A stretch of DNA of 64,000 nucleotides from Spizellomyces punctatus DAOM BR117 (lineage: Eukaryota), in NCBI GenBank assembly GCA_000182565.2, contig KQ257467.1; one strand, 5' to 3'. Shown piece by piece: positions 1 to 20,350 of this stretch (position 1 is the first letter of the stretch; each line of letters begins with the position of its first letter). The notes under the pieces were generated by a model, which made no database searches, was not told where the DNA came from, and saw nothing but the letters and a program-made list of their open reading frames with translations. A program made the position numbers and the translations under genes.

Positions 1-50
1 CCCAGACCACCCAGGCCACCTACCAAGAAAGCAAGATCCATGTAGTAGAG

Positions 51-3000
51 GTGGCTCCATACTCTTTAAGTACCCCCAAAGGGCCAAGAATTCCCCAGAG
101 TCACTTGCTGACTGTGCAAGGTAGAATCCAAGGAATCCCAGTAACCATTCTCCTGGATAATGGGGCAAACCAACTCTATGTGTCACAGTCCTTTGTCAAG
201 AAGGCACAACTGGTGACTCATTCTCTCCCTGGAGCAGAAATCTCTATGGCTGATGACAGAAAGCACCAAGAAATAGGCTTTGTCAAAGGTCTTCAGTACT
301 CAGTAGGAACCTACACAGAACAGTCAGACTTTATAGTAGCCCCAATCAAGTTTGACTTGATCCTGGGTATACCTTGGTTTGCCTGGAGGAATCCCAGTAT
401 CAACTACAACAAGAACACTGGGACCTTCACCACCTCCCAGCACCCCAGAGTCAGATGGTTTGTTAAGCAGGCCAGCTCTTCCAACAAATCCCAGAAGTCC
501 AATCTTATCACCATGGTATCAGCAAAGATGTTGGCCAGAACACTGAAGAAGAGGACAGCAACAGCTTTTGCTGTGTATCTCAAGAACCCTCAAGATACCA
601 GCACCCCTCCAGACACCATGGATTCCAAAGTCACCAAGCTTCTTGAAAACTATCAAGATGTCTTTGCTGAAGAGCTTCCCCCAGGACTTCCCCCTGAGAG
701 ATCAGTAGATCACAGAATTGAACTCAGTGACCCCAACCAGACCCCCTGGAGACCAACCTACCACCTCTCTTCTTTGGAGTTAGAAGAACTGAGGAAGCAG
801 CTTTCAGAGCTTCTGGAGGCAGGCCACATCAGACCATCCAAGAGCCCATTTGGAGCACCTATCCTCTTTGTTAAGAAGAAAGAAGGTTCTTTGAGGATGT
901 GTGTGGACTACAGGGCTCTGAATAAAATCACCATCAAGAACAGATATCCCCTCCCTAGGATTGATGAGCTGATGGATAGGCTGAATGGGGCCCAGGTGTT
1001 TACCAAGCTAGATCTGAAGTCAGGCTATTACCAGATCAGAGTCCACCCAGAAGACATCCCCAAGACAGCCTTCAGAACCAGATATGGTCACTTTGAGTTC
1101 CTGGTCATGTCCTTTGGAATGACCAATGCCCCAGCCACTTTCATGACTTTGATGAATGATGTTCTAAGACCCTTCTTGGACATCTTTGTCATTGTCTACC
1201 TAGATGATATCCTCATCTACTCCAAGACCCCAGAAGACCACCTGGACCACCTCAAGCAGGTTCTACAAGCCCTTAGGCAGAACAAACTGTATGCCAACCC
1301 CAGCAAGTGCCAGTTCTTCAAGCAAGAAGTAGAGTTTCTTGGCCATGTAGTCTCACATGAAGGAGTCAAGCTTGACCCCAAGAAAGTGCAGACTGTTCAA
1401 GAATGGCCCACCCCTCAGAGTGTCACTGAAGTCAGACAGTTCATGGGCCTGGTGACCTACTTCCATAGCTTTCTGAAGGACCTGGCAGAGCAAGCTGCAC
1501 CATTGACAGACCTGTTGAGAAATGACAAGCCCTGGACCTGGTCTGAACCTCAGGAGAAAGCTTTTCAGCAGCTGAAGGATATGGTCACCAAAGCCCCTGT
1601 ACTCAGACCCTTTGACCCAGCCTTGCCTACCACTGTCTTCCCTGATGCCTCAGGCTATGCAGTTGGTGCATGGCTTGGACAGGATGATGGGAAAGGCATG
1701 AGACCAGTTGCCTACCATTCCAGGAAGATGGCCCCAGCAGAGACCAGATATGACACCAGAGAACAAGAGCTGTTAGCCATCCATGATGCCCTCAGAGTTT
1801 GGAGGCCCTACCTGGAAGGAACCCCCTTCAAAGTTATCTCAGACCACCAGCCCCTCAAGTGGCTACAGAACCAGCCCTTCTTGACCAGAAGACAAGCCAG
1901 ATGGGTCATGAATTTCCAATCTTTTGACTTTGAGATTGGCTATGGCCCAGGAAGACTCCACACAGTGGCAGACATCCTGTCTAGAAGACCAGACCTGGCC
2001 CCAAGATGCATCAAGTGCAAGGCCTTGGTGACAGCAGAGTTGAATGCTGTGACCCACACCACCAGCACCCTTCAAGAGAGATTGAAGACCAGTACCACAG
2101 AAGACCCAGAACTTCAAGAGCTCATCCAAGCTTTGGATGACCCCAGGAGACCAGAAGACCAGCAACAAAGGCTCAAGTACCTCAGCCATCAGGATGGGTT
2201 ACTCTATTTCCAGGACAGGATCTTTGTTCCTAGTGACCCAGACCTAAGGTTGAGCCTACTCCAAGAAACCCATGACACTCAGTATGCTGGACACTTTGGC
2301 ATCACCAAGACCCATGATGCCCTAGCAAGGCATTACTACTGGCCAAGGATGTACAAGGACATTAAGAAGTATGTCAAGTCTTGTGATTCCTGCCAGAGAA
2401 GCAAACCTAGTCAGCAACCACCAGCAGGCTTGCTGCAGCCCCTCCCAGTACCCAAGACCAGATGGAGCCAGATCTCCATTGACCTGATCCCTGACCTACC
2501 CATGACTTCCTCTGGTCACAATGCCATCTTTGTCATTGTTGACAGATTGTCAAAGAGAGGCCACTTCATCCCTACCACCACCAAAGCCTCAGCCAAGGAC
2601 CTGGCCCTGCTCTTCTTGAAGCACATCTTCAAGCACCATGGCCTCCCAGAAGTGATTGTATCAGACAGAGACACCAAGTTCACCAGTTCATTCTGGTCCA
2701 ACTTGATGCAACTCTTAGGCTGCAACACCCTCCTAGCCACTGCAAGACACCAGCAGACCAATGGACAGGCAGAGAGAACCATCAAGATATTGAAGATCTA
2801 CCTCAGAGCTTCCCTGGAGTACAACATGAAGAATTGGGAAGATCTTCTCCCCTTTGCTGAGTTTGCCTACAACAACAGTGTCTCAGAAACCACAGGCTTT
2901 ACCCCATTCTACTTGGAGAATGGCCAGCATCCCAGGACCCCAGCAACACCACCAGGAGAAAGCAATGATCTTGAAGCAACAGACTTCCACCAGTATATTC

Positions 3001-3541
3001 AGCAACTGCTTCAAGTAGCCAAGGATAACATGATACTGGCCCAAGAAAGACAAGTTCAGCAAGCCAACAAGTCTCTCAGCAAGGCCCCAAGCTACCCCCT
3101 AGGCTCCAAAGTTTGGCTGTCTAGAGAAGGTATCACCCCAGAAGAAGAAGCCCAGAGGCCAGCCCAGAAACTTCTTCACCCCTGGCTTGGACCTTACAGA
3201 ATCAAGGCCAAGGATGAATTTCAGAATTACACCCTGGAGCTCCCCAGCACCATGAAGATTCATCCAGTGTTCCATGTGAGACTCCTCAAGCCTTACTTGG
3301 ACCCCACAGAGGAGTTCCCTACCAGACCAGTACCCCCTGAGCCTGAGCCAATTACCAGCAAGGAGAAGAGTTTTGGGAAGTTGAGAAGATTCTTGACCAC
3401 AAGACCAGAAGGAAGAAGAATCTCTACCTCATCAAGTGGAAAGGCTATCCCTCCTCTCAGAACACCTGGGAACCAGAAGAAAGCCTCCTACCCCATGGCA
3501 GAGAAATCTTGAAGGAGTTCCTAGCCCAGAAGGGAGCTTAA
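51..3541 (+). CDS. pol: Gypsy Pol polyprotein (protease, RT, RNase H, integrase, chromodomain after a 1-nt frameshift near 3355)
   Basis: Motifs LLDNGA (PR), [11 protein letters not shown] and YLDD (RT), DASG and SDHQPL (RNase H), H..GH..CDSC, SDRD and NGQAER (IN). A second frame from ~3359 reads [41 protein letters not shown] and ends at TAA 3539-3541. Confidence 0.93.
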
Positions 3542-3557: not shown

Positions 3558-4107
3558 TGTGACAGAATTCTTCTGTCAGTGCTATAGTTATACTGGTTAG
3601 ATGTGGTTCCAAACTAGTGGTCACATGACTTTGCTGATGGTGTCAGCATTCATTGGACCAGAATTAGATAAATAAGCAGATTTAGCCATTTCTGGCTAAA
3701 TTAGATGAGTATCCTGACACACTGGCATCTGCCCCTTTCAATCAAGTGGCACAGTGTATTTAGGATGACTTGTCTCACTTGTGATTGGCTATAAATGGTG
3801 CAATAGGCTGACAAATAGTTTAGGATGATATGTATAAGATCTGATTGGTTGCAAATGGTGCAATAGGCTGACAAATAGTTTAGGATGACATGTATGAGTT
3901 GTGATTGGTTGCAAATGGTGCAATAGGCTGACAAATAGTTTAGGATGATGTGGGTGAGATCTGATTGGGTAGTTAGGATATAGCATTTGTCAGCCCCTTT
4001 GTCTATAAAAAGAGGACCTCTCTGAGGCCCCTCAAAGAAGAATAACAAGTAGTAACCAAGTCTTCCCTAGTTTTCTGTTGTCTTCTTGTCCCTGCTAGCC
4101 TGTTACA
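3558..4107 (+). repeat. 3' LTR of Gypsy element A (550 bp)
   Basis: Starts TGTGACAGAATTCTTCTG directly after the PPT and ends CCTGTTACA. TATA-like TATAAAAAG at ~4004. Both ends match the solo LTR at 5708-6163. Confidence 0.9.
3757..3980 (+). repeat. 60-bp tandem repeat (~3.5-4 copies) inside the LTR U3 region
   Basis: Unit approximately TGATTGGTTGCAAATGGTGCAATAGGCTGACAAATAGTTTAGGATGAYA..., repeating with an exact 60-nt period across 3781-3960. Each unit has a reverse CCAAT box (ATTGG). Confidence 0.9.
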
Positions 4108-4216
4108 AAGAGCCACTGAAAATGGTGCCAAAGTTGAGTTTGGCAGCAAGGGATGCTGTATCAAGACTTCAGACAGCCAGGAGGCAATCCAGGGAACTCT
4201 AGGGGGCGGTCTATAC

Positions 4217-5134
4217 ATGTTTCATGCAAGAGAACATGCAAACATAGCCTCTGGAATGAGTTTGGACCTCTGGCATCACAGGTTAGGACATCTGAACATC
4301 AACAGCATCAAAATCTTGGCTAGGAACCAGCTGGGAAGCAGTCTGGAGGTCAAGAATCACACAGAAACATCACCATGTGAAGCCTGTGCCATTGGAAAGA
4401 TTACCAGGTGTCCCTTTCCAAAGGGAGAAGCAGCTAGAGCAGCTCTACTGCTGGGGGTGGTTCACAGTGATGTGTGTGGGCCCATGAAGACACCAAGTCA
4501 TGGTGGAGCAAAGTACTTTGTCACATTCATTGATGACAAGTCAAGGATGACGGCAGTTTATCTTCTGAAGGAGAAGAGTGAGGTTCTCAGCATATTCAAG
4601 GAGTTTGAGGCCTGGGCAACCAACTTCACAGGGCAGAAGATCAAAACTCTCAGATCAGACAATGGGGGAGAGTATGTGGGCGAAGAATTCAAGAAATTCT
4701 GCAAGCAGAAGGGAATTCAGCAGCAATTCAGCACCCCCTACACACCAGAGCAGAATGGTGTTGCTGAGAGGATGAACAGAACGCTGGTGGAAATGGGAAG
4801 GTGCATGCTGCACCACAGTGGACTCAGCTACAAGTTCTGGGGCGAGGCAATCATGACAGCGGTCTATCTCAGGAACAGGAGCCCCACTGCAGCACTCAGC
4901 AACCAATCCACACCATTCCAAGAGTTTACAGGCGGTAAACCAGATCTCCAGCACCTCAGAGTGTTTGGCTGCGTGGCCTACACTCATATTCCAAAGGAAA
5001 AGTGGTCAAAACTTGATGAGAAGGCCAAGAAGGCAGTCATAGTCGGCTACAGCACTCAGAGTAAGGCCTGCAGACTGTGGGTACCTAAAATAAACCAAGT
5101 ATTTCAAGGGACATCATTATTGATGAAAGCTTGA
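4217..5134 (+). pseudogene. Copia integrase region (truncated pol)
   Basis: 305-aa ORF with HHCC zinc finger, DDE core and SH3-like HLRVFGCVAY..KLD; frameshifted near 5100. Confidence 0.88.
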
Positions 5135-5707
5135 TGTGGGAAGCTCAAAGGCAACAGAAGACATCACTGCAAGAAGACAAGATTGAGATTCCTCTGGGAG
5201 GGGAGCCTTCATTCTTGGGCAACCAAGAGGGGCTAGGGCTGGATGGAGAGACTCAGAGAAGGTCCAATGTCACACTAGAACGCTATGTCTGATTGAGAAT
5301 CAGATATAGGAATATGTCAAACTACCTCTGGGGAGATGAACAGTTGGCTGCAAGTGGGTCCTCAACCTGAAACTCAACTCACATGGGTCATTAAAGAGGG
5401 AGGCACAAGGCAAACCTGGTGGCCAAAGGGTACTCCCAAGTTGAGGGACTGGACTACAAGGAGACATTTACACCAGTAGTTAAGTGTGCCACCATCCAGA
5501 TATCCCTCACACTGGCAGCCATGGGGGACATGGAGATCTATGTGTGGAGAGAGGACATCTATGTGGACCAGCCAGAAGGCTTCACCACAACAGGAGGACT
5601 TGCTTGCAAGCTGAAGAAGAGTTTGTATGGTCTGAAGCAGGCTCCAAGTGCCTGAAACAAAGTCATTGACCAGCAATGGACTTCCACAGATATGAATCAG
5701 ACCATTG

Positions 5708-6951: not shown

Positions 6952-7017
6952 GTTATTCCTCCAATAACTTGAGGACTTCTATGTGTTATTCCTCCAATAA
7001 CTTGAGGACTTCTATGT
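6952..7017. repeat. Perfect 33-bp tandem duplication
   Basis: GTTATTCCTCCAATAACTTGAGGACTTCTATGT at 6952-6984 and 6985-7017. Confidence 0.9.
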
Positions 7018-7077
7018 GTTAGCTAGTGAGGAGTTTCTGAGAAAATGATACAGAAAACAGAATGGGAATAAGGGTAT

Positions 7078-7677
7078 TGTAGCGGATTTTTTGTTGGTAG
7101 ACTACGGTAAAGACGACTTGGGTCTCCTAGCAGGTTATGTGGGTGGCCGTACTAGGAATCATAGTCTCCGAATCCTTTCTTTGGGCGTCGGTAGCGACTT
7201 GGGGGCGAGAGGCAAGGAGAGTCAGTTAGTTGTGAACCGAGCAGGATTTAGAGGCTTCGGTACGGGTGATCAGGCCGTTGAAGCGCTCTGTTAGGTTCCT
7301 GTTAACCTAAGATTGGAGTTGAGAAGCGAGTTATGGGGATTTTGTGTCGCTACGGCTTCTGCCCCCAACTTATTTTATTGAATACATCCTTTTTATACAA
7401 GATTCTTGGATAAACTGTTAAACTAAACTAAACTAATGGGTGTCGCTGCACCGCAACTGATTTATTGGTGGCGGTACCAATCTCTTCCTTTTCCGCACTG
7501 GCTCGGGCCTCCACAGGTTGTACAAGGCATGCTGAAATCTAATGCGCCAATTGCCATTCTCCGAACCAGTTTTTTTGGTCGCGGTAACCCAATCGGTGGA
7601 GTTGGTCACGCGATTCGTGCTTCCCGCGTCCGATTTGGGCTTACTCGCGATCTCTCGAAGACGTCCTCGTTGTTACA
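7078..7677 (-). repeat. 3' LTR of element B
   Basis: TGTAGC...GTTACA on + strand; direct repeat of 15369-15968; minus-strand AATAAA near 7373-7379. Confidence 0.97.
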
Positions 7678-7688
7678 TCCCCCCTTTG
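7678..7688 (-). other. Polypurine tract of element B
   Basis: + strand TCC-C-run-TTT immediately inside the LTR, read as a purine-only A/G run on the minus strand. Confidence 0.85.
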
Positions 7689-7734
7689 AAGAGCCAACGC
7701 ACCGGTGCTCCGAGCGGGGGTGTTGGGACATCAA

Positions 7735-10700
7735 TTACCAGGTCGGTACCAGATCTGTGGGGTCCGCTTCATCTGCATCTTGGTTCACGACCCAGATGAT
7801 ACTGGCACGGCCACCGACGTTGCAACAAAACCAGATTTGATCTGTTGCGGTACGAACGATGGTACCCGGGGTCACGTCGGGGCCAGTTCTGGTTACGTAG
7901 AGGGCCGTAAAGGTCTCCGCGGCCCTTTTCAGGTTTGTCGCGCGGAAATGGTACTCCGCGTGCTCGTGATGTCGGGGTCTGGTGAGCCTTGCAGAGGCTT
8001 CCGCTGCGTTCGCCGTCCTTAGGAGCACCGTCCTAGCTGCTTCAATGATGGCGGACGCAAACTCGTGGGTGTCGTCGTTCGGCCAATCGGTGAACGGAGC
8101 CATTTTTCGGCTTCCCGCCTCGTGTTGGGGAACCCCGCGGTCAAGCCAAGCGGCGCACGGAGCTGGGCGCCCTCTTTTTCCGGGTTTTTTCGCGTCGGCA
8201 ACTATTCCAACCACTGCTTCACCACCATCGGTGGCCTTGCTGTAGGGGTCCGCAATGTGGTTTGTGAGGGGCTGGCCCACCGCATAAGGTTTCGGAGCGT
8301 CGACTCCCAGCCAAAACTCATGCCCTGGAGTCTGCAGCGGCACGTTGGGGTTGGTCCGAAGCTGATGAACCCAGGAGTGAACCCAGGTAGCGATCGCAAC
8401 CCCAAGGCAATCCAGCACGCCCTCGGCCTCGAAGTCGCCCGAGTCTTCCTCCCAAGGGTAGCCGGACATGTACGTGGAGGGTACGCTCACTCCTGCTTGT
8501 CCTCTGAGATCGGTGTTCATTGTGTTAGAAATGGAAGTTTTAGTTTCGGTGTCGATAGAAGGGGTTTGCGAAGCAGAGTGAGTGTGTAAGGGAAGTAGGT
8601 CGTGGGCGGTTGAAGAAGAAAAAAGAGGGGGAGCGTGCAGGGGCGTCCTTTTAAGGTTGTCGCCGGCTGATTTTGACAGCTCAGACGCGCGTAAGCGTGA
8701 TCGGGAGGCTTGGTGTGGCGTTCTCGACTGGTGAGGTAAGCCACGCAAAACTGGTTTTCTTTCTGGTGAGAGGGCGTGATTATCATGTGAGCTATCGTCC
8801 GGATAAACCGCGAAGCATTGGTGGTCGGAAGCATAAGCCGTATCTTCCAGGGCGTCGCCTGCAAGGCTGACTACCAAAGAGTCCTCTACTAGTGTGCTAG
8901 TGGGAGCTCTGGATCTCCAGTACTCTTCTAAGGCTTCGGAAGCCTCTGTTAGGGCTTCCTCTGGTTCCCAGGTATCCTCATGGGGTGGGTATCCGGACCA
9001 ATGTATTCGAAATTGACGTTTTCCGCGCCTGGTTCGATGGTCTACTATCGCTTCCACTTCAAACTCGCCATCTGAAGCGTCAGAATCCTCCGCTTGTGCT
9101 TCCGCAACCTTTTCCTCAGTTTCGGCGTCGACAGGCTTCTGGTACGGACGTAATTTCGATATGTGAAACCATGGATGAAGTCGTCTCATCTTGTCTGGCA
9201 GTTTTAACTCATAGTTGTCACGGAGAGGGTTACAGTCGGTCACCGTGACTGGTCCCAGCCATTTCGGAGCGATCTTGGACTCATACCCTGCTAGGTTTTT
9301 CGTGCTCAGAAGCACCTTATCTCCTCTCCGGAACTCCAAATGTCATCGCGATAAATCATAATATCTTTTCTGCGAATCCTGGGCTTCGATCATCAGATCT
9401 CGGATAAGGATGTTTAGGTCACCGAGGTGTTTACAGAGCTCCTCCGCATCTGCATTTCTGGTTTCTGACGGCCTTTCGACGATGTCCACCAGTGGATTGT
9501 GGGGCTCATAGCCTAGGTCCATTCTGAATCGCGTCATTTTTGTCGCCTCATGTACTGTATCGTTGATAATGAATTCCGCAACTGGAAGAAAGGTGTCCCA
9601 GTCGTCTAATCGGGTGTTGACCATTGTGGTAAGGACCTGCAAGACTGTTGCGTTGTCTCTTTCTGATTGTCCATCACCTTGAGGGTGGTAGGCTGTGGTG
9701 AGCTCTTGATTAATCTTTAGGTTTTTGCAGACCTCCTGCCAAAATCGACTCGTAAATTTGGAGTCGCGGTCCGAGATAATGGTCTCCGGGATGCCGTGCA
9801 ATGGGGCGTAGCGCTCTATAAAGAGTTCCGCGACCTGAATAGCTGTCGCAGTGCTCTTGAGGGGCCATACGTGGATCCTCTTTGAGCATTTACATGCTAT
9901 TAACCAAAAGGCGTCGTACCCTCTGGAAGTAAGTGGGAGCTTGGTTACGAAGTCAGTCGTGATGACTGTCCAGCGTCCCGGAGCTGGTGGTATGGGTTTC
10001 AGCAACCCCGGAATCAGTTGCGGTACCCTTTTTGAGTGTTGACAGGTTTCACATCCTGCGCAGTGTTTTCTGAAATCTTGTGCCATTTTTGGCCACCAGA
10101 CTTGCGCTGCAGCTCTAGCGTAGGTTCTTTCGAATCCGAAGTGTCCTCCCCCCTCATGAAAAAGCTTGCGCACCTCAGGGGTGCAAGCAGGGGGCACGTA
10201 AAGGCGCCAAAGGTCTTCGGAGACTGAAAAACGGTGCCACAGCAGGTTATCTGCACGTTGCCAGTCCTGAAGAAAGCGCATGTCGGTGGTAGTGTACGTG
10301 TCGGGGCTGGTCTCCCATAGAAGGGTGCGGGCCTGTTGGGCGATGGGGTGGAGCGGGCCGGTGAGGCCAGCATGGATGGCGGTGATGAGTGCGGGCTGTA
10401 ACGCCAAACGAAAGATGGCATCTGCCAGTGTTGAGGAGGGTGCGGGACCGGCTGGCGGGGTGCGCGGCCGTCGTCCTTTGCGTTCCGACACCCATATTTC
10501 GGTCGCGGTAGAGCAAAGAAGAGTTTCCGCGCCAAGTAGCCGCAAAAGTGTATCAGCAACTATGTGGAAGCATCCTGGTTTGTGTATGATTGTCATCCAT
10601 TCGGACCAGTAACTAAGATCGAGGGCCCAGCGGAGGAGCTTTCGGTTCTCGCCTTTGTATTTGGCGAGCCACAAAAGAGCTCGGTGATCGGTAATGACCA

Positions 10701-13700
10701 TGAAAGGCAGGCCTTCGAGGTATGGGCGGAGTTTTCCGAGGCCCCAAATGAGGCATCCGGCCTCGAGTTCGACAGGTGGGGCCTTCTTTTCCGAGGTGGT
10801 GGTGCCTCGGGAATGGTAGCACAGTGGGCGTTTAGAAGCATCCGGCTGTAACTGTTCGAGCGTGACATTAAACGCTGTGTAGGAAGCGTCACTGTGAAGG
10901 GTGTAGGGGAACCCTTTTCTGGGTGCCGCAAGCACTGGAGCTGTTGTCAGAGCCTGCTTGGCGGCTGCAAAGGCAGAGTTTTGGGAGTCGGTCCATGAAA
11001 CTTCACGCTTCGCGACGAATCTGTGCAGACCTTGGTCGGGGCGCTTGCGAGCAAGGCGTCTGACACAAAAGGGGTCAATGGGCAAGTCGGCCAGCAATGA
11101 TTGGCGTAGATTGACCGCCGGTAGGTCTGAGGAGCTAGATTTAAGATGTTGCGAAACCTCAAATCAGGCTCCGGTTGCTGTGATTGTTGGGGCCACTGCC
11201 GTGTCAAGCATGGATGGTGAATTGAGCTTTTCAGCTCCTTTCCTTGGGTCAGCGCGACCCTTTTTAAGGTCTCGGTATTCACGAACGCCCTCTTGGATAG
11301 CGTCTTGCAGGGGTCGGACGAGTTCCGCGTAGCGAGGGATGAATTGGGCATAGAACCCAAGGAGACCCACGAAGGACCATAGGTCACCAATAAATTTAGG
11401 TCATGGCCAATCGACTATGGTTGCGACCTTGTCTGGATCGGTAGCGAGGCCCTGGGAAGAGGCAACGAAACCGAGGGCCGTGAGCTGGTGAAAGAGCCAT
11501 TGACACTTGTCGAGTCTTAGGGTGAGTTTGGCCCTGGAAAAGCGGTCGAGCCAGTCCGCGATGGCATCTAGGGCTTCCGCGGCTGTCTCCGCTCGTGTAT
11601 GGATATCGTTGACGAAGTTGTTGATATTTCGCCATTTGGAGGGACCCAAGGTGTCGTCCATCACCCGACAGAAGTGCGAGGGGGCAGTCTTGGGTCCGAA
11701 GGGCATGAAAAGTGGTTTGTAGATGCCATCGTGGAGTCTGATCGCGAGCCATTTGCGTACCGACGTATCAGTGATGGCGATTTGGTAAAATCCTTTGTTT
11801 GCGTCACCTCCCGATATGTATCGGAATGGGACTGCGATGATCCAGTTCAGGATGTCGAGCATGATGGGAAAGGGATATGGATCCCAGGCCATGCAGTCGT
11901 TGGCTCGGCGATAGTCGAAGGCTACCCGCGGGGGTTTGTCTGTGTAGCGAATAATAACAGGATCGCTGGCGAAGGTTACTTCGGTGGTTCGTTTCCACCT
12001 CTGAAGCCCCATCATGGTGTCTCGCTCCGTCTCGAGGGCTGTCCGCTCCAATGGAGAGTACGACCGTGGCCTCGAAAGGGGTGGCGGAGCCGAGATAAAT
12101 CGAGGCACATAAGGAATCTTGGTGTAGTTCCCTATGAGATGACCCTCATAGCTGAAGGCTTGATGGAAGTGTTGTAGAATGTTGATTAGGGCCCAGACCA
12201 CGGGTTTGGGTTGTTTGAGATCGACGTGGAAACGTTCCGCATCTTTTAATTGGGCTTTGAAGGCCCCTGGAGCCTTCTCTGTAGAGTTGAGGTTCCATTT
12301 GTTCCGAAGTGTCTGCCATTCTTCTTCGGAAATGTTCTCTTCGGGGTCCGCGACCGAATTATGGGTCGCGGTGGACAGTTTGAGGCCTAACGGGGCCGTT
12401 GTGCTAGCTGCGGTGGCATCAAGAGGGTTTTCGATGAGGAAAGTTTGGGCTGCCACGCGTGTCTGTCCCGTGATTAACATGGTTAATCTAGACTTCTGAG
12501 CTTTGGCTTTGGTCAGCCGTGGCATTGACACATCCTTCATGAATTCACCCTGCTTGGTTTTGTATGGCGTGCCGCGCATGTGATCGGTATCCAGCTCATC
12601 TGTTATGGAGCAGGGGATAAGGATGTCTGGATTCTTGAGCATCACCACGAAACTGGGTAACGGGGGTTCCTGAACCAAGGTTTGGAGTTTCAAATGTCCC
12701 AAAACGTCGTTGGCTAGGATGATGAGAGGTTTCCCGTATGCGATGACCCGAAAGTAGGCGCGGAAAGTCAGGTATTCTCCGCCGCGGCCTCTGAGGGAAG
12801 TTTCGAGGCATACTGTCTTGGTAGATGAGATACGTCCACCAATGCCATTGAAAGCCATCGTTTCCACATCCTGCAAATCGGTTTCGGAGAACAGAAGGCC
12901 TTGGTATGTGTCGGAAATCAGAGACTCGCAGGCCCCTGTGTCTAGTACCACAGGTGCCCAGAGCTGTGCGATGACGGCTAGCGTCCAGCAAGGCTGCGTT
13001 TGGGTCTTAGTCTGGCTTTTGAGTACATCGCCTAAATCTACTGAGTAGAAGGCGTTGATAGAAGGCACCGCGATCTCGAAATGGGGCGCGATGTCGTTAA
13101 TTGTTGCTTCCGTAGCCTTGATCACACTCTCAAAGTGTTCTCTAGTTTTGTTGTTTTGTGGTTTTGTTGTTTTATTCTGGCAAGCAACTTGTTCGATAGC
13201 CAGCATGACTATACGCGTCCGTTCGCTCTCTTCGTGTCTTTGGAGACGTGGATGGTCTTTAACGTGCCGAAATTTGGGGTTTCCGCGATGATAATAATAG
13301 TCTGAGCGAACGATATTGCCTGTCAGGAGAAATGCCACCAGTTGCAGGTTGGCGTATGCTTCAAAGATAACAGGATCTTCAGAGCTCCACATCAAGAATT
13401 TCTCGCACTCGTCGAGCTTTATCCAGGCAAGGAGAATCAAACGAGGGGTACCGTCTTCTCGGACCTTTCGCAGGATTTGATCCTTGTCAGCTTCGGCTGC
13501 GGCAGCGATGTAGAGGTGGTGGGAACTCCACGCAACTGCGTAGGGGTCGTTCCCGAGGTGCCCGGCGCCTCGCTTCGGTTCTTTGGCAAAGAAGCTGAGC
13601 GCGCGGGGGTTGTTGCCCATCATCAGAGCCACTTGCAGGGTACCCCAGATGATGGCTATGTTGTCCCAGACTCGGTCCCAGCCCTGCGTGGGCGTGCGGG

Positions 13701-15213
13701 GGTCCTCTTCCTTGGTCACCGTGACCTTGGAAAGAGGTGCGGTCATCAAAATTGTTGATTCCGAGTGCTTGGGTGAATGAAAGAACCCGATGGTGTGGAA
13801 TCCTTGATTAGCGGCTTCCGTTCTTTCCAGTTCCGAAGCCGAAAAAAGAGTCTCGGTGGTAGTGGACGTCGAGTCCAGCTCCACTATGTACGCCTTCTTC
13901 GATTCCTGTTTGGGTTTCCAACCTGAGGGCATGGGTGCTCCATATGGTCCTTTCTTTCCATCTTCAGGATCTTTTCGGTTCGGGTTCTGCCAGCAGAAAA
14001 CATTCCAATGCTTTTTCTGACAGAATTTGCAGGGTGCCGGTGGTTCCTTGTTGGGGTCCGGAACCATCTTCTGAGGACCATCGTGACCCTTTTTGGGGTT
14101 TCCGGTTTTATGCGGAGCCGTCTGCTTAGGGCCTTTGTTGGTTCCGGTCTTTTGTGACTTCTTCTGAGCTTCTGCAGCACCGCTGTAGCAAGGGTCTCAT
14201 TTTCTGGTGTCATCAGAGCCGAAATAAAGGCGCAGGAAGTCTTTTAATTTGGTCAGGTTCGTGACGTTACAGGATTTGACCATGATTTGGATGTTGCTGG
14301 GCAATTGTTCGACTATTAGGTCGAAATGCTGGTCAGCGGGACATTCTATGTTTGCCCGGTCGCCATAAGCGAGGCGCTGGAGATGAGTTTTGTGGTCGAT
14401 GAACACGAGAAAGCTGCGAAATTCTTTGGGGTTCGCATGGCAGCGCACATATTCGGTTTTGCGCTTGGACTCGGTTAGGGGATCTCGGAACTCTCGAAGC
14501 AGTTCCTCTTTCCACCTTTTCCAGGTCCATGAGCGAGTTTCCTGGGCTTCCAGAGTGTAAAACCAAGCGTCAGCAGGGGTTTTCTCGGCTATCATGGCTG
14601 GTAGGAGCTGTACCATCCTGGCATCCGACGTTGCGCTAACGTTTTGAAGAAGTTGGACTTTGTTAAGCCATTCTTCAATGTCTTGGTTTCTTCTGCCCAT
14701 AAACTCGGGTACGTCCTTTGCTTTCAAGGAATCGACCTTGGTGTCGCTGGCCCACGGGGCCGCTGGCACTTGGATTGGAGGCACCGCACCTGAAAAACTT
14801 GGTTTGGTACGCTCCCTTGGTGTGTCCGCCGTTTCCCACGGGGTTGCGGACCGTTCTCTTGTAGCTCGTGCTATGGGAGGTTGTTCAGGCAGCGGGCGAT
14901 GCGCTAGGGCTTCTAAGGCTCATGCGAGGCGCTCATCCGCCGCTGTCTGACGTTCGGAAAGCCTATGAAGCTGTTCCGTAAGGTTTTGAGTTGCCAACTG
15001 CATTGCAGCAGTCGAGCGGGCAATGTCTTCTTTTAACGCTGCCACTTCAGAGGCCATTGTGGCCAAGTTAGGGGCTTCCGGTTCGACGGAAGTGGTCCCT
15101 GAACGCCTTGGGCATGTTGCGGGAGGGACTTCGACGTCCTCCGCAGGACCCTGACTACGAGTCTGGATCACAGGTGAGCGGCCTCGCGTTGGTGAGCGTT
15201 CGACCGGCATCAT
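7735..15213 (-). pseudogene. Single-frame Gag-Pol-chromodomain-extension polyprotein of element B (~2,492 aa), interrupted by five TGA codons
   Basis: Track ORFs 14920-15312, 14197-14784, 11401-14067, 11164-11370, 9343-11097 and 7735-9339 share one frame and are separated only by single TGA codons. Motifs: capsid-like IEEWL..W..WK, CKFCQKKHWNVFC knuckle, LDTGA, FDYRRAN, FVND (YxDD position), SDAS, TDH, GHFG..CETC, SDRD, GQSER, chromodomain FEVEAIVDH..W.GY..TWEP. Confidence 0.9.
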
Positions 15214-15350
15214 TCTCGGTTTCGTGAAGTTCTGTCTCTGAAATGAGAGAAAAGGTTTCCGAGTAGCTACCTGAGTGGATCTTGGTTTGCGCAAGAGTTT
15301 TGGTACGACCAAATAAGGTTTTCAGCTGAATTTGAGAGGGGAAGGCGGTT

Positions 15351-15368
15351 CGTCGCGCTTCTCCACCA
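15351..15368 (-). other. Primer binding site, complementary to a tRNA 3' end (tRNA-Ala type)
   Basis: Minus strand TGGTGGAGAAGCGCG directly after the 5' LTR. Its complement ...CUUCUCCACCA fits the eukaryotic tRNA-Ala acceptor end (..UCCACCA). tRNA identity is inferred. Confidence 0.75.
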
Positions 15369-15968
15369 TGTAGCGGATTTTTTGTTGGTAGACTACGGTA
15401 AAGATGACTTGGGTCTCCTAGCAGGTTATGTGGGTGGCCATACTAGGAATCATAGTCTCCGAATCCTTTCTTTGGGCGTCGGTAGCGACTTGGGGGCGAG
15501 AGGCAAGGAGAGTCGGTTAGTTGTGAACCGAGCAGGATTTAGAGGCTTCGGTACGGGTGATCAGGCCGTTGAAGCGCTCTGTTAGGTTCCTGTTAACCTA
15601 AGATTGGAGTTGAGAAGTGAGTTATGGGGATTTTGTGTCGCTACGGCTTCTGCCCCCGACTTATTTTATTGAATACATCCTTTTTATACAAGATTCTTGG
15701 ATAAACTGTTAAACTAAACTAAACTAATGGGTGTCGCTGCACCGCAACTGATTTATTGGTGGCGGTACCGATCTCTTCCTTTTCTGCACTGGCTCGAGCC
15801 TCCACAGGTTGTACGAGGCACGCTGAAATCTAATGCGCCAATTGCCATTCTCCGAACCGGTTTTTTTGGTCGCGGTAACCCAATCGGTGGAGTTGGTCAC
15901 GCGATTCGTGCTTCCCGCGTCCGATTTGGGCTTACTCGCGATCTCTCGAAGACGTCCTCATCATTACA
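15369..15968 (-). repeat. 5' LTR of element B
   Basis: Direct repeat of 7078-7677, flanked by the PBS on the inside and TSD GTAT on the outside. Confidence 0.97.
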
Positions 15969-17665
15969 GTATGCTATTCTCTTATATAGGTCTAGTCTAC
16001 TATTGTAAGAACCACTAGGGAATATAGGAGCAGCTAAAAAGAAATATACACACATATGGCACAGTGGAATATGCCTATCAGTGATGCCACTTGGAGGGCT
16101 ATTAGCCTATAACTGCTGTAATAACCTTATGGCATATATTTCTTTGCTCAGCTTAAACCAATTGGTTATTAGATTCTTACTTTAGAGCAAGTAATAACTG
16201 GTAATACTCTGATTATTATGTAGTTCCCTAATCACTGATGAGGTATCTGGTTAGATTAAGGTTAGCCATGCAATTAATCACAACATCATGCCACATCCCA
16301 TTATAACTGCTGATATTATGGACTCAAATCTTTGCAAGTTATATAAATCTTGTAGTGGATTAAAAATGCCTCCTATATATCAGGGTATACATAATATAGT
16401 TGATAGAGATATTTCTATAAAATACAAATACTTGCATATCCATATTTGCCTTCTGTCTTATTATATATTGGATCTTCTGTCAAGTGCATTGCATGCACGG
16501 TAGGCGGTCCACACAACTCGCACAGATCTGGTACGGATCACGTGAATGTTCCTCAAACGCGTCCAGTCCCGCCGTCGTCATCTTGAGACGTCAGCCTTAA
16601 CCAGCCTGGCTGATTTGGGTGAGCCTTCCTCAAGGAACAAGCCAACATCCGCATTACAATCCATATCAGCTGGATGGCTTTTGGATTGAGGTGCCATAGG
16701 AACGCCAAACTCACAGCAAAATTTGTCTGGCACGCCAAGCACATTTGTTTAGGAAAGGAGCAAACGATGGGGGAGCCGATTAGAGTAGAGGCTGGTCAGT
16801 TGACGGTCATGCTAAACTTCAAATACGTATTTAATCTTATAGACCAGTTGGAATACCAGGCGATTTTGCTGTTCGTCTCACACCAGGCAGTAATGCTACA
16901 TGTATTGCTGATAGGCACGGCTTCGTATGCATCGTGAGTACACAACATTGCGACGGCTGTGTGTGGTGGTGGACCTGCAATCACATATTTACTCTTTCCA
17001 GGGTCAAATAGGAGAACTAGTGAACCACTACATCTTCCGGCCGCATGACGCTTCACAGGATCCACTTCGACTTGAACAGGTTCTCGTAACCCTTCCGGAA
17101 GTTGAATATGTGGAAAGGCAGGTCAAAGCGCCACGTAGTAAAAGGGGTTGAGAGGACGTGAATTTCCAGCGGCAATAAACCAAATATTTGAGCATAGGTT
17201 CCTCTAATTCGGTTATAAGTTCCCTCTGCCGCGTTTCCCTCTGCCTCTCGTACACCGAGGGCCAAGAAGCGGCCCTTTCTTTTTCTTCTTTATTGGTTTC
17301 GCGCCTTTCCCTGTCCTTCCCTTGCCGCGTTTGAACGGTGATTTCCCATATCGCGGTGTGGCCAAAACCGCACAACTAACGAAAACTGCAGCCAAGAGCA
17401 TAACGACTGCTAAATGCTTAGAGGATGTCCAATAATGGAATGCCCCATTCGCTGTTTCAACCATCGGGAATTTAGGGCATTTAGCGATCTGGTAGAACGA
17501 CCATCTTTTCCTAGTTGGCTGGCCGGAAAATCATGTGATTCACTTGAATCATCACTATGGCAACCCGGCTAACTGAACTTTGCAAGCACCCGCAGGTGGG
17601 GAGGCTTGCAAGGCAAACGCGCGGCTCTCATCATTTGGAACAATTCCAGCAGAACAACTACCGCC

Positions 17666-19108
17666 ATGCTCGCCGTTCGGTCACTCCCCCGTGTTGCCAG
17701 TGCCGCTACTGGGTAAGAGAGTGGATAAAAGATGCGCATTAGTTTTGGTAGGAGTGCGGGAGCCGCCTGAACAAGAGTGGAAAATTTTCATTCAATGGTG
17801 CTCTGGGGAAGAGATGTAGCGTTAGAAATGTTTGGAACATGGCCCTTGTTACTCCGTCGATAGCTGGGGAGTATGGTGCATTCGAACGACCGCTTGCTAA
17901 CGATGCTGTCGTTGTGACCTTTAGTCAACCGGCGATTTCGTTTGGCGTTCAAACTCGTAACATGGCAACTTTGAAAGAGAGTGAGTGATATGAGAGACTT
18001 TGAAGTCTAAGAATATTACTGACCACATTCATCTCTACAGTCTCCGTTCGATTGAAGTCTGTGTCGAACATTGCCAAAATTACAAAGTCAATGAAGATGA
18101 TTGCCTCTACAAAGGTTACCAAGGCACAGCGGGTGATGGAAACCGCTCGGGTGTACGGTAACTCTGCCACAGGTACGGAACGTTGGGTGGGCTAGATTCC
18201 AGTCACAAGCACCTTGTTGGTTATTCATCTAAATACCCGACAACACAGCTCTCTACCAGCATACTGGTACGTCGACCAACGAAGAAAGTGGCAAGCCCTT
18301 GGTCGTCGTTGTATCCTCGGATCGTGGATTGTGTGGAGGTATCCACAGTTCATTATCCAAAACCACCCGGAAGTATTTGTCTGCCCATCCCGAGGCTGCG
18401 CTAGCAATCTTGGGTCAGAAGGCCAAGGCGCAGCTGCAGCGTGACAGCCGTCAGCAGATTGTTGTGACTTTCGACAGTGTCGCAAAGAACCTGCCTACGT
18501 GGACCGAAGCGGCTCTGATTGCGGATGAGATCTTGAAGACGGGAATCGAGTTCGAGACTGCCAATATCATTTACAATAAGTTCAAATCTGTTATTGCATT
18601 TGACACCGTCATTGTTCCTGTTCACTCGTACAAAGCGCTTTTGGAGTCTCGTAAGTTTACATTGTTTGGCGGGATTTGTTGTAACAAATTGGAAAGGCAA
18701 TTTCTCATGTGGTGCGATGCTGTTAGCCAAATTGTCTGCCTACGAGGTGGAAGACCCCGTGCTGAAGAACTACGAGGAGTTTACTTTGGCCAACACCGTT
18801 TTCTGGGGTATTGCTGAGGGGAATGCATCCGAAATGGCGGCCAAGCGTACGGCCATGGAGAACGCTACAAAAAATGCTGGTGAGACCCTTTTTTTTTCTA
18901 TTTCTTGTATTTGCACCGGTTTGATACTAAGAATTGCCGTACTCTTCCAGGCGAGATGATCCAGAAGTTGACTTTGACCTACAACCGCTCTCGTCAAGCT
19001 ACTATCACAAACGAACTGGTAAGTGGTTTGTGTGCATTCTGCCGCTACCCACATTCTGACATGAGGTTTCCCAAGATTGACATTATCACTGGTGCCATGG
19101 CCGTTTAA
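17666..19108 (+). CDS. ATP3: Mitochondrial F1 ATP synthase gamma subunit (multi-exon)
   Basis: Presequence MLAVRSLPRVASAA; mature N-terminus ATLKEISVRLKSVSNIAKITKSMKMIA; SSDRGLCGGIH; SEMAAKRTAMENATKNA; YNRSRQATITNEL; IDIITGAMAV*. GT-AG introns. Confidence 0.97.
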
Positions 19109-19997: not shown

Positions 19998-20350
19998 CTG
20001 GTCCACAAGAGCGGAAGTGGAAAGTTGGGAGTTGGCTTACTCCACACTGGGGCACGTGACTAATAGGTAAATGAGGTACACAGCCCCGGCGGATCCCGCT
20101 GCTGACGTCCTCGTCGATTACCTCCGATCCCTCCTTCAAGTTTGTGGGGACTGAGCTTGGGGACCTGAAAGCTCACCACAAACAGTCTGCACCCCTGCAC
20201 CCTTAATAGATATTTTTTTGAAATAGCAATTTGTGCTTCAGATCTATCAACCCCCTACATCCAGCGACAGTGGACATGGCTTCCGCATCGGACAGCCATC
20301 CTCTTTTTTTCAGTAGGTGTATGCAACTGCTTTCTATCTGGTTGTATACC

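What the first reader, a model, noticed from the sequence alone, without database searches (positions are those of the whole stretch)
7735..8916. Gypsy element B carries an unassigned ~390-aa in-frame extension after the chromodomain, in the env position
Seen: the frame does not stop after the chromodomain (8917-9063). It continues through a ~130-aa Ser/Thr/His-rich linker and then a ~260-aa globular-looking block (MNTDLRGQ...WVVNQDADEADPTDLVPTW, own ATG at 8520), ending ~50 bp before the PPT. No clear signal peptide or transmembrane anchor is visible, so it does not resemble a classical env. A pyrimidine tract (minus strand, ~8610-8632) upstream could serve as an internal promoter or splice acceptor. 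Known: chromovirus Pol normally ends at or just after the chromodomain, as element A does here. Inference: a retroelement-encoded accessory protein (targeting, anti-silencing or particle factor), possibly not described before.
Basis: partly seen in the sequence, partly recalled or inferred. Interest (0 to 1): 0.8.

Follow-up and report, generated by a model that had tools for sequence, protein, structure and literature searches.

The report
Unknown folded domain behind chromovirus integrase
A dead copy of a chytrid-fungus retrotransposon carries, fused behind its integrase chromodomain, a conserved 245-residue protein domain that matches no known family, so this group of elements encodes an extra, still unexplained component.

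Summary
Element B is an 8.9-kb LTR retrotransposon on the minus strand (600-bp LTRs at 7078-7677 and 15369-15968). Its single gag-pol frame runs past the chromodomain (8914-9063), through a 151-aa Ser/Thr/Pro/His linker (8464-8916), into a 242-aa block (7738-8463). The frame stops 47 nt before the polypurine tract.

This copy is dead: five in-frame TGA codons lie upstream, and its differences from other copies follow a CpG-decay pattern. That the extension is open here therefore proves little.

The family evidence is what counts:
- Three diverged subtypes (about 50-60% identity) are annotated in Spizellomyces.
- Five deep relatives (24-35% identity) exist; four are 228-284-aa ORFs that start with their own Met, and the fifth is a partial model.
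- All three gene models that include the chromodomain read into the block in frame.

AlphaFold2 folds the block confidently (pTM 0.83; 0.77 for a deep relative). It has no transmembrane segment and few conserved catalytic-type residues. Its most conserved stretch includes a basic loop that both models leave flexible.

Best reading: a real element-encoded accessory domain, made as the C-terminal end of Pol. It most likely binds something (nuclear import or chromatin tethering) rather than acting as an envelope protein. No evidence was found for a subgenomic transcript. The function remains inferred.

The parts
7074..7077 (.). Target-site duplication GTAT; the second copy is at 15969-15972
   Evidence: The flanks read directly show GTAT on both sides of the element. 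Four bases can match by chance (1 in 256).
7078..7677 (-). 3' LTR, 600 bp, TG...CA. It holds TATAAA at 7397-7392 and AATAAA at 7379-7374; reads with a poly(A) tail end near 7340
   Evidence: Aligned with the 5' LTR: 586 of 600 bases identical. Motifs located. Poly(T) loose ends at 7340 seen in RNA run X23.
7678..7687 (-). Polypurine tract AAAGGGGGGA
   Evidence: Lies directly upstream of the 3' LTR on the minus strand.
7735..7737 (-). TAA stop that ends the whole gag-pol-extension frame
7738..8463 (-). Conserved folded block, 242 aa, from GYPW to the terminal W. It is made of three long helices, a three-stranded sheet and long ordered loops
   Evidence: Relatives found; alignments. AlphaFold2 gives pLDDT 80.3 and pTM 0.83, and only residues 1-19 of the 266-aa query are disordered. 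The model of deep relative P0011 shows the same order of elements.
8158..8190 (-). Basic loop KKPGKRGRPAP, inside the most conserved stretch of the family (GIVADAKKxGKRxRxxPCAAWLDxGxPQ)
   Evidence: The K and the second R are invariant in 8 of 8 lineage representatives. Its N-terminal half (query residues 101-120) has pLDDT about 60 in the window's model, and the corresponding stretch (residues 102-126) is below 50 in the P0011 model. The RGRP core occurs only in type 1.
8464..8916 (-). Linker of 151 aa, rich in Ser, Thr, Pro and His, with low hydrophobicity
   Evidence: Composition. About 90% identical to type-2 copies (135 of 150 over ORF residues 31-180, a span that also covers the chromodomain). 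Partly conserved in type 3.
8518..8520 (-). In-frame ATG, 19 codons before the GYPW that opens the block
   Evidence: Annotated type-2 models P0014 and P0018 start at the matching Met. Deep relatives start 27-37 residues before the YPW motif.
8612..8633 (-). Pyrimidine tract of 22 nt; in frame it encodes APPLFSSS
   Evidence: The same peptide is kept as FPPFFSS in type 3.
8914..9063 (-). Chromodomain of the HP1/CDY/MPP8 type
   Evidence: Pfam Chromo, E 1.5e-16. Best PDB sequence matches are CDY1, MPP8 and HP1, E about 4e-11.
9142..9324 (-). Integrase C-terminal SH3 domain (SH3_Tf2-1)
   Evidence: Pfam E 4.2e-09.
9343..9345 (-). In-frame TGA, one of five; the others are at 11164-11166, 11401-11403, 14197-14199 and 14920-14922
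   Evidence: At 14199 the other genomic copies read G, which makes the codon CGA (Arg).
9346..15321 (-). Gag, protease region, RT, RNase H and integrase, in the same frame as the extension
   Evidence: Pfam RVT_1, RT_RNaseH, Integrase_H2C2 and rve. A single frame without indels relative to other copies.
15369..15968 (-). 5' LTR, followed by the primer-binding region TGGTGGAGAAGCGCGA at 15368 and downwards

Best explanation
The last 1.18 kb of element B's coding frame encodes a real, element-borne accessory module of a Spizellomyces chromovirus family: a disordered 150-aa linker followed by a compact 245-aa alpha/beta domain from a small family restricted to this lineage.

Shown:
- The block is translated in the Pol frame, as the C-terminal end of the single Gag-Pol polyprotein.
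- It is conserved between diverged element subfamilies.
- It folds as one domain and has no membrane anchor.

Inferred:
- It is a binding module, not an enzyme.
- It either stays tethered to the integrase-chromodomain through the flexible linker, or is clipped off by the element's protease.
- It uses its conserved, exposed basic loop (K..GKR.R) and conserved aromatic residues for nuclear import and/or a second contact with DNA, nucleosomes or a host factor.
- In this way it helps the chromodomain-bearing integrase reach its chromatin target.

The copy in this window is itself a relic, inactivated by methyl-CpG-type decay.
For: Frame and anatomy:
- One frame runs from gag to 7735, and the stop lies 47 nt before the polypurine tract.
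- Three of the 3 gene models that include the chromodomain read on in frame into linker and block: the window's own P0005, plus P0006 and P0015.

Conservation:
- The phmmer search of 1.84 billion representatives returned 8 hits at E<=1e-3, 7 at <=1e-10 and 4 at <=1e-30. They include proteins at 31-38% identity over about 250 residues, such as P0008 at E 5e-32.
- There are three Spizellomyces subtypes, about 50-60% identical to one another, and five deep lineages at 24-35% to the window's block.
- Type 3 occurs in two Spizellomyces species, at 70% identity.

Fold:
- The window's block gives pLDDT 80.3 and pTM 0.83 from only 14 sequences.
- Deep relative P0011 gives pLDDT 74.5 and pTM 0.77, with the same order of helices and strands.

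Binding rather than catalysis:
- Residues invariant in 8 of 8 lineages are A, W, G, K, R, G, Q, W, T and A.
- Only one Asp, and no His, Glu, Cys or Ser, is kept in 7 or more of 8 lineages.
- The basic loop lies within the most conserved stretch and has low confidence (is flexible) in both models.

Chromodomain: it is of the H3K9me-reader type by sequence.

Context: the copy sits next to a second gypsy element and copia fragments.

The block is not a duplicate of any upstream part of the polyprotein.
Against: - No function was tested, so the binding role is inference.
- Four deep relatives (P0008-P0011) are 228-284-aa proteins that start with their own Met. This suggests the block can work as a free protein, and their genomic context could not be fetched.
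- The RGRP (AT-hook-like) core is confined to type 1, and Pfam reports no AT-hook in the window's ORF at E<=1.
- No full-length Pol-block fusion longer than 586 aa was found with the profile. This is weak evidence, and the annotated models are fragments.
- The block has a higher G+C content than the rest of the element (0.605 against 0.51-0.54), which would also fit a foreign origin.
- RNA coverage of the block was 0-0.9x, so expression is not shown.
Confidence: 0.6

Rival explanations
1. The block is a separate third gene product (ORF3-like), made from its own AUG at 8520 through a spliced or internally initiated subgenomic RNA. It would act in trans, for example as a particle or nucleic-acid chaperone or as a counter-silencing factor. 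On this reading the in-frame fusion to Pol in Spizellomyces is incidental.
For: - Deep relatives P0008, P0009 and P0011 begin with a Met 27-37 residues before the YPW motif, and P0010 begins inside the first helix.
- All three Spizellomyces subtypes keep a Met 13-24 residues before YPW.
- The ATG at 8520 has an A at -3.
- AlphaFold2 places the fold boundary just after this Met; residues 1-19 are disordered.
- Sense extra ORFs between pol and the 3' LTR, some expressed from spliced RNA, are known in plants (PMC7264820, section 4 read).
Against: - No stop or frameshift separates the block from Pol in any of the 3 models that reach the chromodomain.
- The linker is itself conserved at the protein level.
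- No splice joint was seen, and coverage over the block was no higher than over pol in RNA run X23. Depth was at most 1x and only about 6% of the run was read.
- A Met within about 25 residues is expected by chance roughly 40% of the time for each lineage (my estimate).
Confidence: 0.2
2. The block is a piece of a cellular gene captured by an ancestor of these elements (transduction). It is carried along with little or no role in transposition.
For: - The block's composition differs from the rest of the element: G+C 0.605 against 0.51-0.54, and GC3 0.645.
- Free-standing relatives exist.
- Capture of host domains by LTR elements is documented: the orchid AlkB domain (PMC9289625, abstract) and rotifer ORF3s (PMC5408684, abstract).
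Against: - The block is present in three diverged subfamilies and in many copies; at least 11 annotated models occur in one genome. According to the abstract of PMC7264820, simple transduction gives one or a few copies.
- It stays intact and alignable at about 50-60% identity between subtypes.
- No relative with any known cellular annotation was found among 1.84 billion representatives.
- Capture and a later function for the element do not exclude each other.
Confidence: 0.12
3. The extension is a meaningless read-through: the original stop after the chromodomain was lost, and the frame is open by chance.
For: - This copy is a pseudogene.
- The extension has few codons that CpG decay can turn into stops, so being open here means little.
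Against: - Relatives at 24-38% identity have E-values down to 5e-32.
- The fold prediction is confident for the window's block and for one deep relative, each as first sequence of overlapping family alignments.
- The block length and its terminal motifs are conserved.
Confidence: 0.02

Closest known systems
Chromoviruses (Ty3/gypsy LTR retrotransposons with an integrase C-terminal chromodomain, such as MAGGY, Tf1 and Tcn1)
   Same: Element B has LTRs, a polypurine tract, RT, RNase H, integrase, an SH3 domain and an HP1-like chromodomain in the usual order. Chromodomain-directed integration into H3K9me chromatin is the established model; Gao et al. 2008 is cited in a passage of bioRxiv 10.1101/2021.11.30.470311 that I read.
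   Different: Pol normally ends at or just after the chromodomain, as in element A here. Here it runs on for another 393 codons. The fungal chromovirus surveys I could search do not mention such an extension (PMC2864245 and PMC3248453, passages only; neither names Spizellomyces).
Sense additional ORFs, or env-like ORFs, between pol and the 3' LTR of plant and insect LTR retrotransposons
   Same: The position (after pol, before the polypurine tract) and the orientation are the same. They are also conserved across the copies of a family (PMC7264820, abstract and section 4).
   Different: Those ORFs are usually separate, often have transmembrane segments, and some are expressed from spliced RNA. 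This block is fused in frame, has no transmembrane segment, and no splice was seen.
Extra domains fixed in LTR retrotransposons: rotifer ORF3s (GDSL esterase, DEDDy exonuclease), the orchid AlkB demethylase, and the additional RNase H at the very C-terminus of Pol in Tat lineage III
   Same: In each case a module was added to the 3' end of the coding region and is shared or exchanged between element lineages (PMC5408684 abstract; PMC9289625 abstract; PMC4408406 passage in section 6). Here type 1 and type 2 share a roughly 90% identical chromodomain and linker, but their blocks are only about 57% identical.
   Different: All of those modules belong to recognisable enzyme families. This one matched nothing in Pfam, NCBIfam or PDB sequences and lacks an obvious catalytic set of residues.
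Integrase-linked tethering modules (Ty5 targeting domain, MLV integrase tail with BET proteins, LEDGF/p75 with AT-hooks for HIV)
   Same: The analogy is one of working principle only: a C-terminal appendage or partner that adds a chromatin or DNA contact to integrase. The list of examples is recalled. LEDGF and AT-hook appear together in the papers listed, which I did not read.
   Different: There is no sequence or fold relationship, and binding was not tested.

Membership tests
Chromovirus (Ty3/gypsy with chromodomain) | Two LTRs with TG...CA ends, a polypurine tract and a primer-binding site starting TGG | tested here: met
   The LTRs are 600 bp and 97.7% identical. AAAGGGGGGA precedes the 3' LTR, and TGGTGGAG... 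follows the 5' LTR.
Chromovirus (Ty3/gypsy with chromodomain) | Domain order RT, RNase H, integrase, with a chromodomain at the integrase C-terminus | tested here: met
   Pfam finds RVT_1, RT_RNaseH, Integrase_H2C2, rve, SH3_Tf2-1 and Chromo in that order. Pfam did not detect the protease in this decayed copy.
Retroviral or errantiviral env and plant env-like ORFs | Signal peptide and/or transmembrane anchor | tested here: not met
   The highest 19-residue hydropathy mean is 1.1. The block has pI 5.5 and GRAVY -0.40.
Retroviral or errantiviral env and plant env-like ORFs | Separate ORF expressed from a spliced subgenomic RNA | tested here: inconclusive
   The block is in frame with Pol, with no stop between. 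No joint was seen in RNA run X23, but depth over the region was at most 1x.
AT-hook DNA-binding motif | An RGRP core flanked by basic residues, conserved in the family | tested here: not met
   KRGRP occurs in the window's copy and in P0001 only. Other lineages have RLRD, RGRD, RARP, RARI, RTRE or RRRD. Pfam reports no AT_hook at E<=1. The wording of the motif definition is recalled.
Additional RNase H at the Pol C-terminus (as in Tat lineage III) | A conserved set of acidic catalytic residues (DEDD) and an RNase H profile match | tested here: not met
   Only one Asp is kept in 7 or more of 8 lineages. No RNase H Pfam hit in 10 of 10 members at E<=1.
Any Pfam or NCBIfam family | A profile match above the curated cut-off | tested here: not met
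   None of 10 members matches Pfam at E<=1. In NCBIfam, only two unrelated models matched, in 2 and 1 of 14 members, at E 0.03-0.05.
Any solved fold in the PDB | A structural match that stands above background | tested here: inconclusive
   See Tried and rejected. By the tools' own caveat, a missing match does not show that the fold is new.

The most novel reading that the evidence does not exclude
The block is a protein fold not yet represented among solved structures, and it is a mobile cassette of chytrid retroelements. It would be free-standing in some elements and fused behind the integrase chromodomain in Spizellomyces. It would be swapped between element lineages by recombination, since type 1 and type 2 share a roughly 90% identical chromodomain and linker but have blocks only about 57% identical. 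Its role would be to engage a host factor, for integration-site choice or for countering 5mC/H3K9me silencing. That would explain why it diverges much faster than the neighbouring chromodomain.
Probability: 0.25. Interest if true: 0.75.

Novelty: new variant of a known kind. Interest (0 to 1): 0.55.

Why it matters
LTR retrotransposons rarely fix new protein domains. Those that were fixed (chromodomains, extra RNase H, AlkB, methyl-CpG-binding and methyltransferase domains) each revealed how elements choose targets or deal with host silencing.

Here an early-diverging fungus carries a chromovirus family with a second C-terminal module. The module folds confidently yet has no recognisable relatives.

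Spizellomyces punctatus can be transformed genetically (Medina et al. 2020, seen only as a reference entry in PMC12695648). It also has both 5mC and 6mA, according to a passage of the same paper. The role of the domain in nuclear import, targeting or counter-silencing could therefore be tested directly. The domain is also a candidate for structure determination.

Tried and rejected
Structure searches
- Window model, Foldseek against PDB: 0 matches at E<=0.001; best E 0.41, TM at most 0.22.
- Window model, Foldseek against BFVD viral models: 0 at E<=0.001; best E 0.36.
- P0011 model, Foldseek: best E 0.20, to the SAS-6 N-terminal domain, with rmsd about 13 A.
- By the tools' own caveats, these blanks do not prove that the fold is new.

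Sequence searches that found nothing useful
- PDB with profile A3: 0 hits at E<=10.
- PDB with single sequences: 1, 0 and 2 chance-level hits, none recurring.
- ESM Atlas with two stored homologues: feature scores of at most 0.82 (chance range), structural TM at most 0.32, and the Atlas's own models had pLDDT 0.27-0.30.
- Profile search among proteins of 586-2000 aa: none among the 8,000 candidates scored.

Context of the deep relatives could not be fetched
- Metagenome contigs: 267 and 127 pattern matches, none confirmed.
- Viral contigs: 42 matches, none confirmed.
- Prokaryote genome contigs: 134 matches, none confirmed.
- No whole genome is held for this window, so tBLASTn for other copies and dN/dS were impossible.
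- Within the window there is no second copy of the block.

RNA
- No RNA holder was listed by the look-up of sequencing runs.

Other checks on the region
- Antisense ORFs over the extension: 0 Pfam hits in 4 ORFs. A fifth, minus-strand ORF in another frame also had none.
- Rfam on 7000-16000: 0 matches.
- Block profile against the element's own upstream polyprotein: no hit with all filters off.

Literature
- Searches found no description of this extension and none of the six SPPG gene ids searched.
- Supplementary files were not opened. Those of PMC5364385 (its 'Sp family 71', a Gypsy family) and of PMC3248453 may hold relevant annotation.

Tools
- I did not use complex prediction, because the report claims no specific partner.
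Full report
**Anatomy**

Element B lies on the minus strand. Aligning its two ends shows 600-bp LTRs at 7078-7677 and 15369-15968 with TG...CA termini. They are identical at 586 of 600 positions. A polypurine tract, AAAGGGGGGA, lies directly before the 3' LTR. A TGG-initiated primer-binding region lies directly after the 5' LTR. GTAT flanks the element on both sides.

From 15321 down to 7735 there is a single reading frame of about 2,530 codons. Its only interruptions are five TGA codons, at 14920, 14197, 11401, 11164 and 9343. In this frame Pfam finds, in order:
- RVT_1;
- RT_RNaseH;
- Integrase_H2C2 and rve;
- SH3_Tf2-1;
- a chromodomain at 8914-9063, E 1.5e-16.

The best solved relatives of the chromodomain are CDY1, MPP8 and HP1, at E about 4e-11. 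The element is therefore a chromovirus with one Gag-Pol frame.

**The observation**

After the chromodomain the frame goes on for 393 codons to a TAA at 7735-7737, 47 nt before the polypurine tract.
- The first 151 residues are rich in Ser, Thr, Pro and His and poor in hydrophobic residues.
- The last 242, from GYPW to the terminal W, are acidic (pI 5.5) and have no hydrophobic stretch long enough for a membrane anchor; the highest 19-residue mean is 1.1.
- The ATG at 8518-8520 and the pyrimidine tract at 8612-8633 both exist. The tract lies in frame and spells APPLFSSS. Subtype 3 keeps this peptide as FPPFFSS, so it reflects Pro, Leu, Phe and Ser codons rather than a signal.
- The chromodomain of element A (3347-3541, in a frame shifted from the rest of its Pol) is followed by a stop soon after the domain.

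**This copy is dead, so its open frame proves little**

I laid contigs of two DNA-like runs on the element. They showed no indels. Their differences were dominated by positions where the window has A or T and the other copies have G or C.
- Of the 40 differences the tool displayed (221 more were not shown), 35 are of that type.
- Of those 35, 34 sit at a CpG in the other copies.
- Of the 23 that fall in the coding frame, 10 are synonymous.
- At 14199 the other copies read CGA where the window reads TGA.
- All five internal stops are TGA.
- All 14 differences between the two LTRs are transitions, mostly CpG against TpG or CpA.

This is the signature of methyl-cytosine deamination. A passage of PMC12695648 lists Spizellomyces among species that have both 5mC and 6mA.

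Upstream of the extension there are 30 CGA and 5 TGA codons; the extension has only 3 CGA. An unbroken extension here is therefore roughly what chance predicts. For the same reason, a dN/dS near 1 among young copies would not refute function.

**Evidence from other copies and relatives**

No whole genome is held for the window, and the window has no second copy of the block. The evidence therefore comes from protein databases.

Searching with the block found:
- 4 proteins among 1,504 candidates of similar length;
- 2 among 4,015 longer candidates, one of them the window's own product;
- 8 at E<=1e-3 among 1.84 billion representatives read exhaustively by HMMER.

Cluster look-ups added further members. 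The named members come from Spizellomyces punctatus DAOM BR117, Spizellomyces sp. 'palustris' and Gaertneriomyces sp. JEL0708. The window's own 484-aa product is itself on record in public sources without a name shown. The window is therefore most likely from S. punctatus.

An identity matrix on 250 profile columns and a tree give three Spizellomyces subtypes. The tree used 14 of the 17 rows; P0001, P0004 and P0007 were left out as too short.
- Type 1: the window's copy, P0007 (93% identical to it) and P0001.
- Type 2: seven models, 84-93% identical to each other and 55-60% identical to type 1. This clade has support 100/99.
- Type 3: P0002, with a 70% identical counterpart in the second Spizellomyces species.

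Five deeper lineages are 24-35% identical to the window's block. In all of them the length, the YPW start, the stretch GIVADAKKxGKRxRxxPCAAWLDxGxPQ, TALYVT, DQIWF and the C-terminal strands line up. Chance ORFs or decaying read-through would not keep this.

**Fused or free**

All three gene models that reach the chromodomain continue in frame through linker and block: the window's own, P0006 and P0015.

In contrast, P0008, P0009, P0010 and P0011 are 228-284-aa proteins with their own Met. They were predicted on contigs of 7,956, 1,273, 7,835 and 8,261 bp. Three of these contig lengths are about the size of one LTR element. I could not fetch any of them: two metagenome scans, one viral scan and one prokaryote scan gave no confirmed locus. 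Whether the free forms sit in retroelements is the main open point.

**A mosaic**

Against the type-2 protein P0006, the window's product is identical at 135 of 150 positions over residues 31-180 (chromodomain and linker). Over the block it is only about 57% identical. The drop comes between residues 200 and 270, and P0015 shows the same pattern. Either the block was exchanged between element lineages by recombination, or it evolves far faster than its neighbours. DNA of the other copies would be needed to tell the two apart.

**Fold**

AlphaFold2 on the 14-sequence alignment gives mean pLDDT 80.3 and pTM 0.83. Only residues 1-19 of the 266-aa query are disordered, so the domain starts at the YPW motif, just after the internal Met. 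The elements are:
- a long helix (40-61);
- a long, mostly ordered loop region;
- two long helices (154-183 and 190-208);
- three strands (210-215, 233-240 and 243-250).

A second model, with the 31%-identical P0011 as target, gives pLDDT 74.5 and pTM 0.77 with the same order of elements. The stretch leading into the basic loop is the least confident ordered part in both models. My crude propensity profile agrees on the helices and the C-terminal strands.

**Tried and found nothing**

**Transcription**

In the one stranded RNA run that could be laid (raw reads, about 6% of the run read):
- The LTR is heavily covered: about 360x sense over U5 and about 374x antisense over U3.
- Poly(A)-tailed reads end near 7340, which fits TATAAA at 7397 and AATAAA at 7379.
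- Twenty reads cross from U5 into the primer-binding region, so some full-length sense RNA exists.
- Sense depth inside the element is at most 10x, and 0-0.9x over the extension.
- No splice joint was reported.

This neither supports nor excludes a subgenomic message.

**What it most likely does**

Shown:
- It is made in the Pol frame.
- It is a conserved, compact, soluble domain.
- It is joined to the integrase-chromodomain by a long, low-complexity linker.
- Few typical catalytic residues are conserved: one Asp, and no His, Glu, Cys or Ser, in 7 or more of 8 lineages.
- The most conserved stretch contains an exposed basic loop.

Inferred: it is a binding module. It would supply a nuclear-import signal and/or a second contact with DNA, nucleosomes or a host factor, working either in cis with the chromodomain-bearing integrase or after protease cleavage in the linker. 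The RGRP core that looks like an AT-hook is confined to type 1, so I do not call it an AT-hook domain.

The main rival is a free ORF3-like protein made from the AUG at 8520. The free-standing deep relatives keep this alive.

The insertion lies beside a second gypsy element and copia fragments, and about 2 kb from an ATP synthase gamma gene. This is compatible with chromodomain targeting but does not show it.

**Comparison and novelty**

Extra ORFs or domains behind pol are a known phenomenon:
- plant sense and antisense extra ORFs (PMC7264820, abstract and section 4; PMC11963269, abstract);
- rotifer ORF3s shared between element types (PMC5408684, abstract);
- an orchid AlkB domain (PMC9289625, abstract);
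- an extra RNase H at the very C-terminus of Pol in Tat lineage III (PMC4408406, passage).

This case differs in three ways:
- the module is fused behind a chromodomain;
- it is found in chytrid fungi;
- it belongs to no recognisable family.

Nine literature searches found no description of it.

I rate it a new variant of a known kind, with moderate interest.

Noticed in passing
window 7078-15968: All five premature stops in element B are TGA. One is shown to derive from CGA in other copies. Of the displayed differences where the window has A or T, 34 of 35 lie at CpG sites, and the differences between the two LTRs are also mostly CpG transitions. The element is decaying by methyl-CpG-type deamination, not by indels.
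   Followed up: yes
window 7078-7677 (LTR): In stranded RNA run X23 the LTR shows two abutting piles of opposite orientation that meet near 7354: about 360x sense over U5 and about 374x antisense over U3. Poly(A)-tailed reads end near 7340. This suggests a bidirectional LTR promoter, or many solo-LTR transcripts; depth inside the element is at most 10x.
   Followed up: partly
window 13723: One contig of run X1 joins telomere-type repeats (CCCTAA)n to the element at position 13723. This suggests a truncated copy capped by a telomere somewhere in that genome (table 7).
   Followed up: no
window 9627-9730: A contig of DNA-like run X5 skips 102 bases (34 codons, in frame) in the integrase C-terminal region. 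This looks like a length variant among copies. Several short alternative contigs also break between 9112 and 9759.
   Followed up: no
window 3-3541 (+): Element A is a second gypsy element that runs off the window start. Its chromodomain (3347-3541) lies in a frame shifted from the rest of its Pol, so it is also damaged. A 60-bp unit repeated 3.1 times follows at 3782-3968.
   Followed up: partly
window 4046-5652 (+): Fragments of a Ty1/copia element lie between elements A and B: gag_pre-integrs, rve and SH3_retrovirus at 4046-5131, and RVT_2 at 5395-5652. Together the three make a small cluster of retroelements.
   Followed up: partly
window 6952-7021: A perfect 33-bp unit repeated 2.1 times lies just outside the 3' LTR of element B.
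   Followed up: no
window 14200-14919 (-): The gag region gives a weak Pfam hit to Clr2_transil, a transcription-silencing protein (E 0.0048, 18.1 bits against a cut-off of 27). It is probably noise.
   Followed up: no
window 18233-63999: Ordinary host genes lie to the right of the element cluster: ATP synthase gamma (18233-18956), a glycosyltransferase family 20 domain and a trehalose-phosphatase domain (20222-24609), a GTF3C1-like protein (32160-34742), acetyl-CoA hydrolase (44597-45433), an F-box protein (50678-51628), and WD40 and PH-domain proteins (61798-63999).
   Followed up: no
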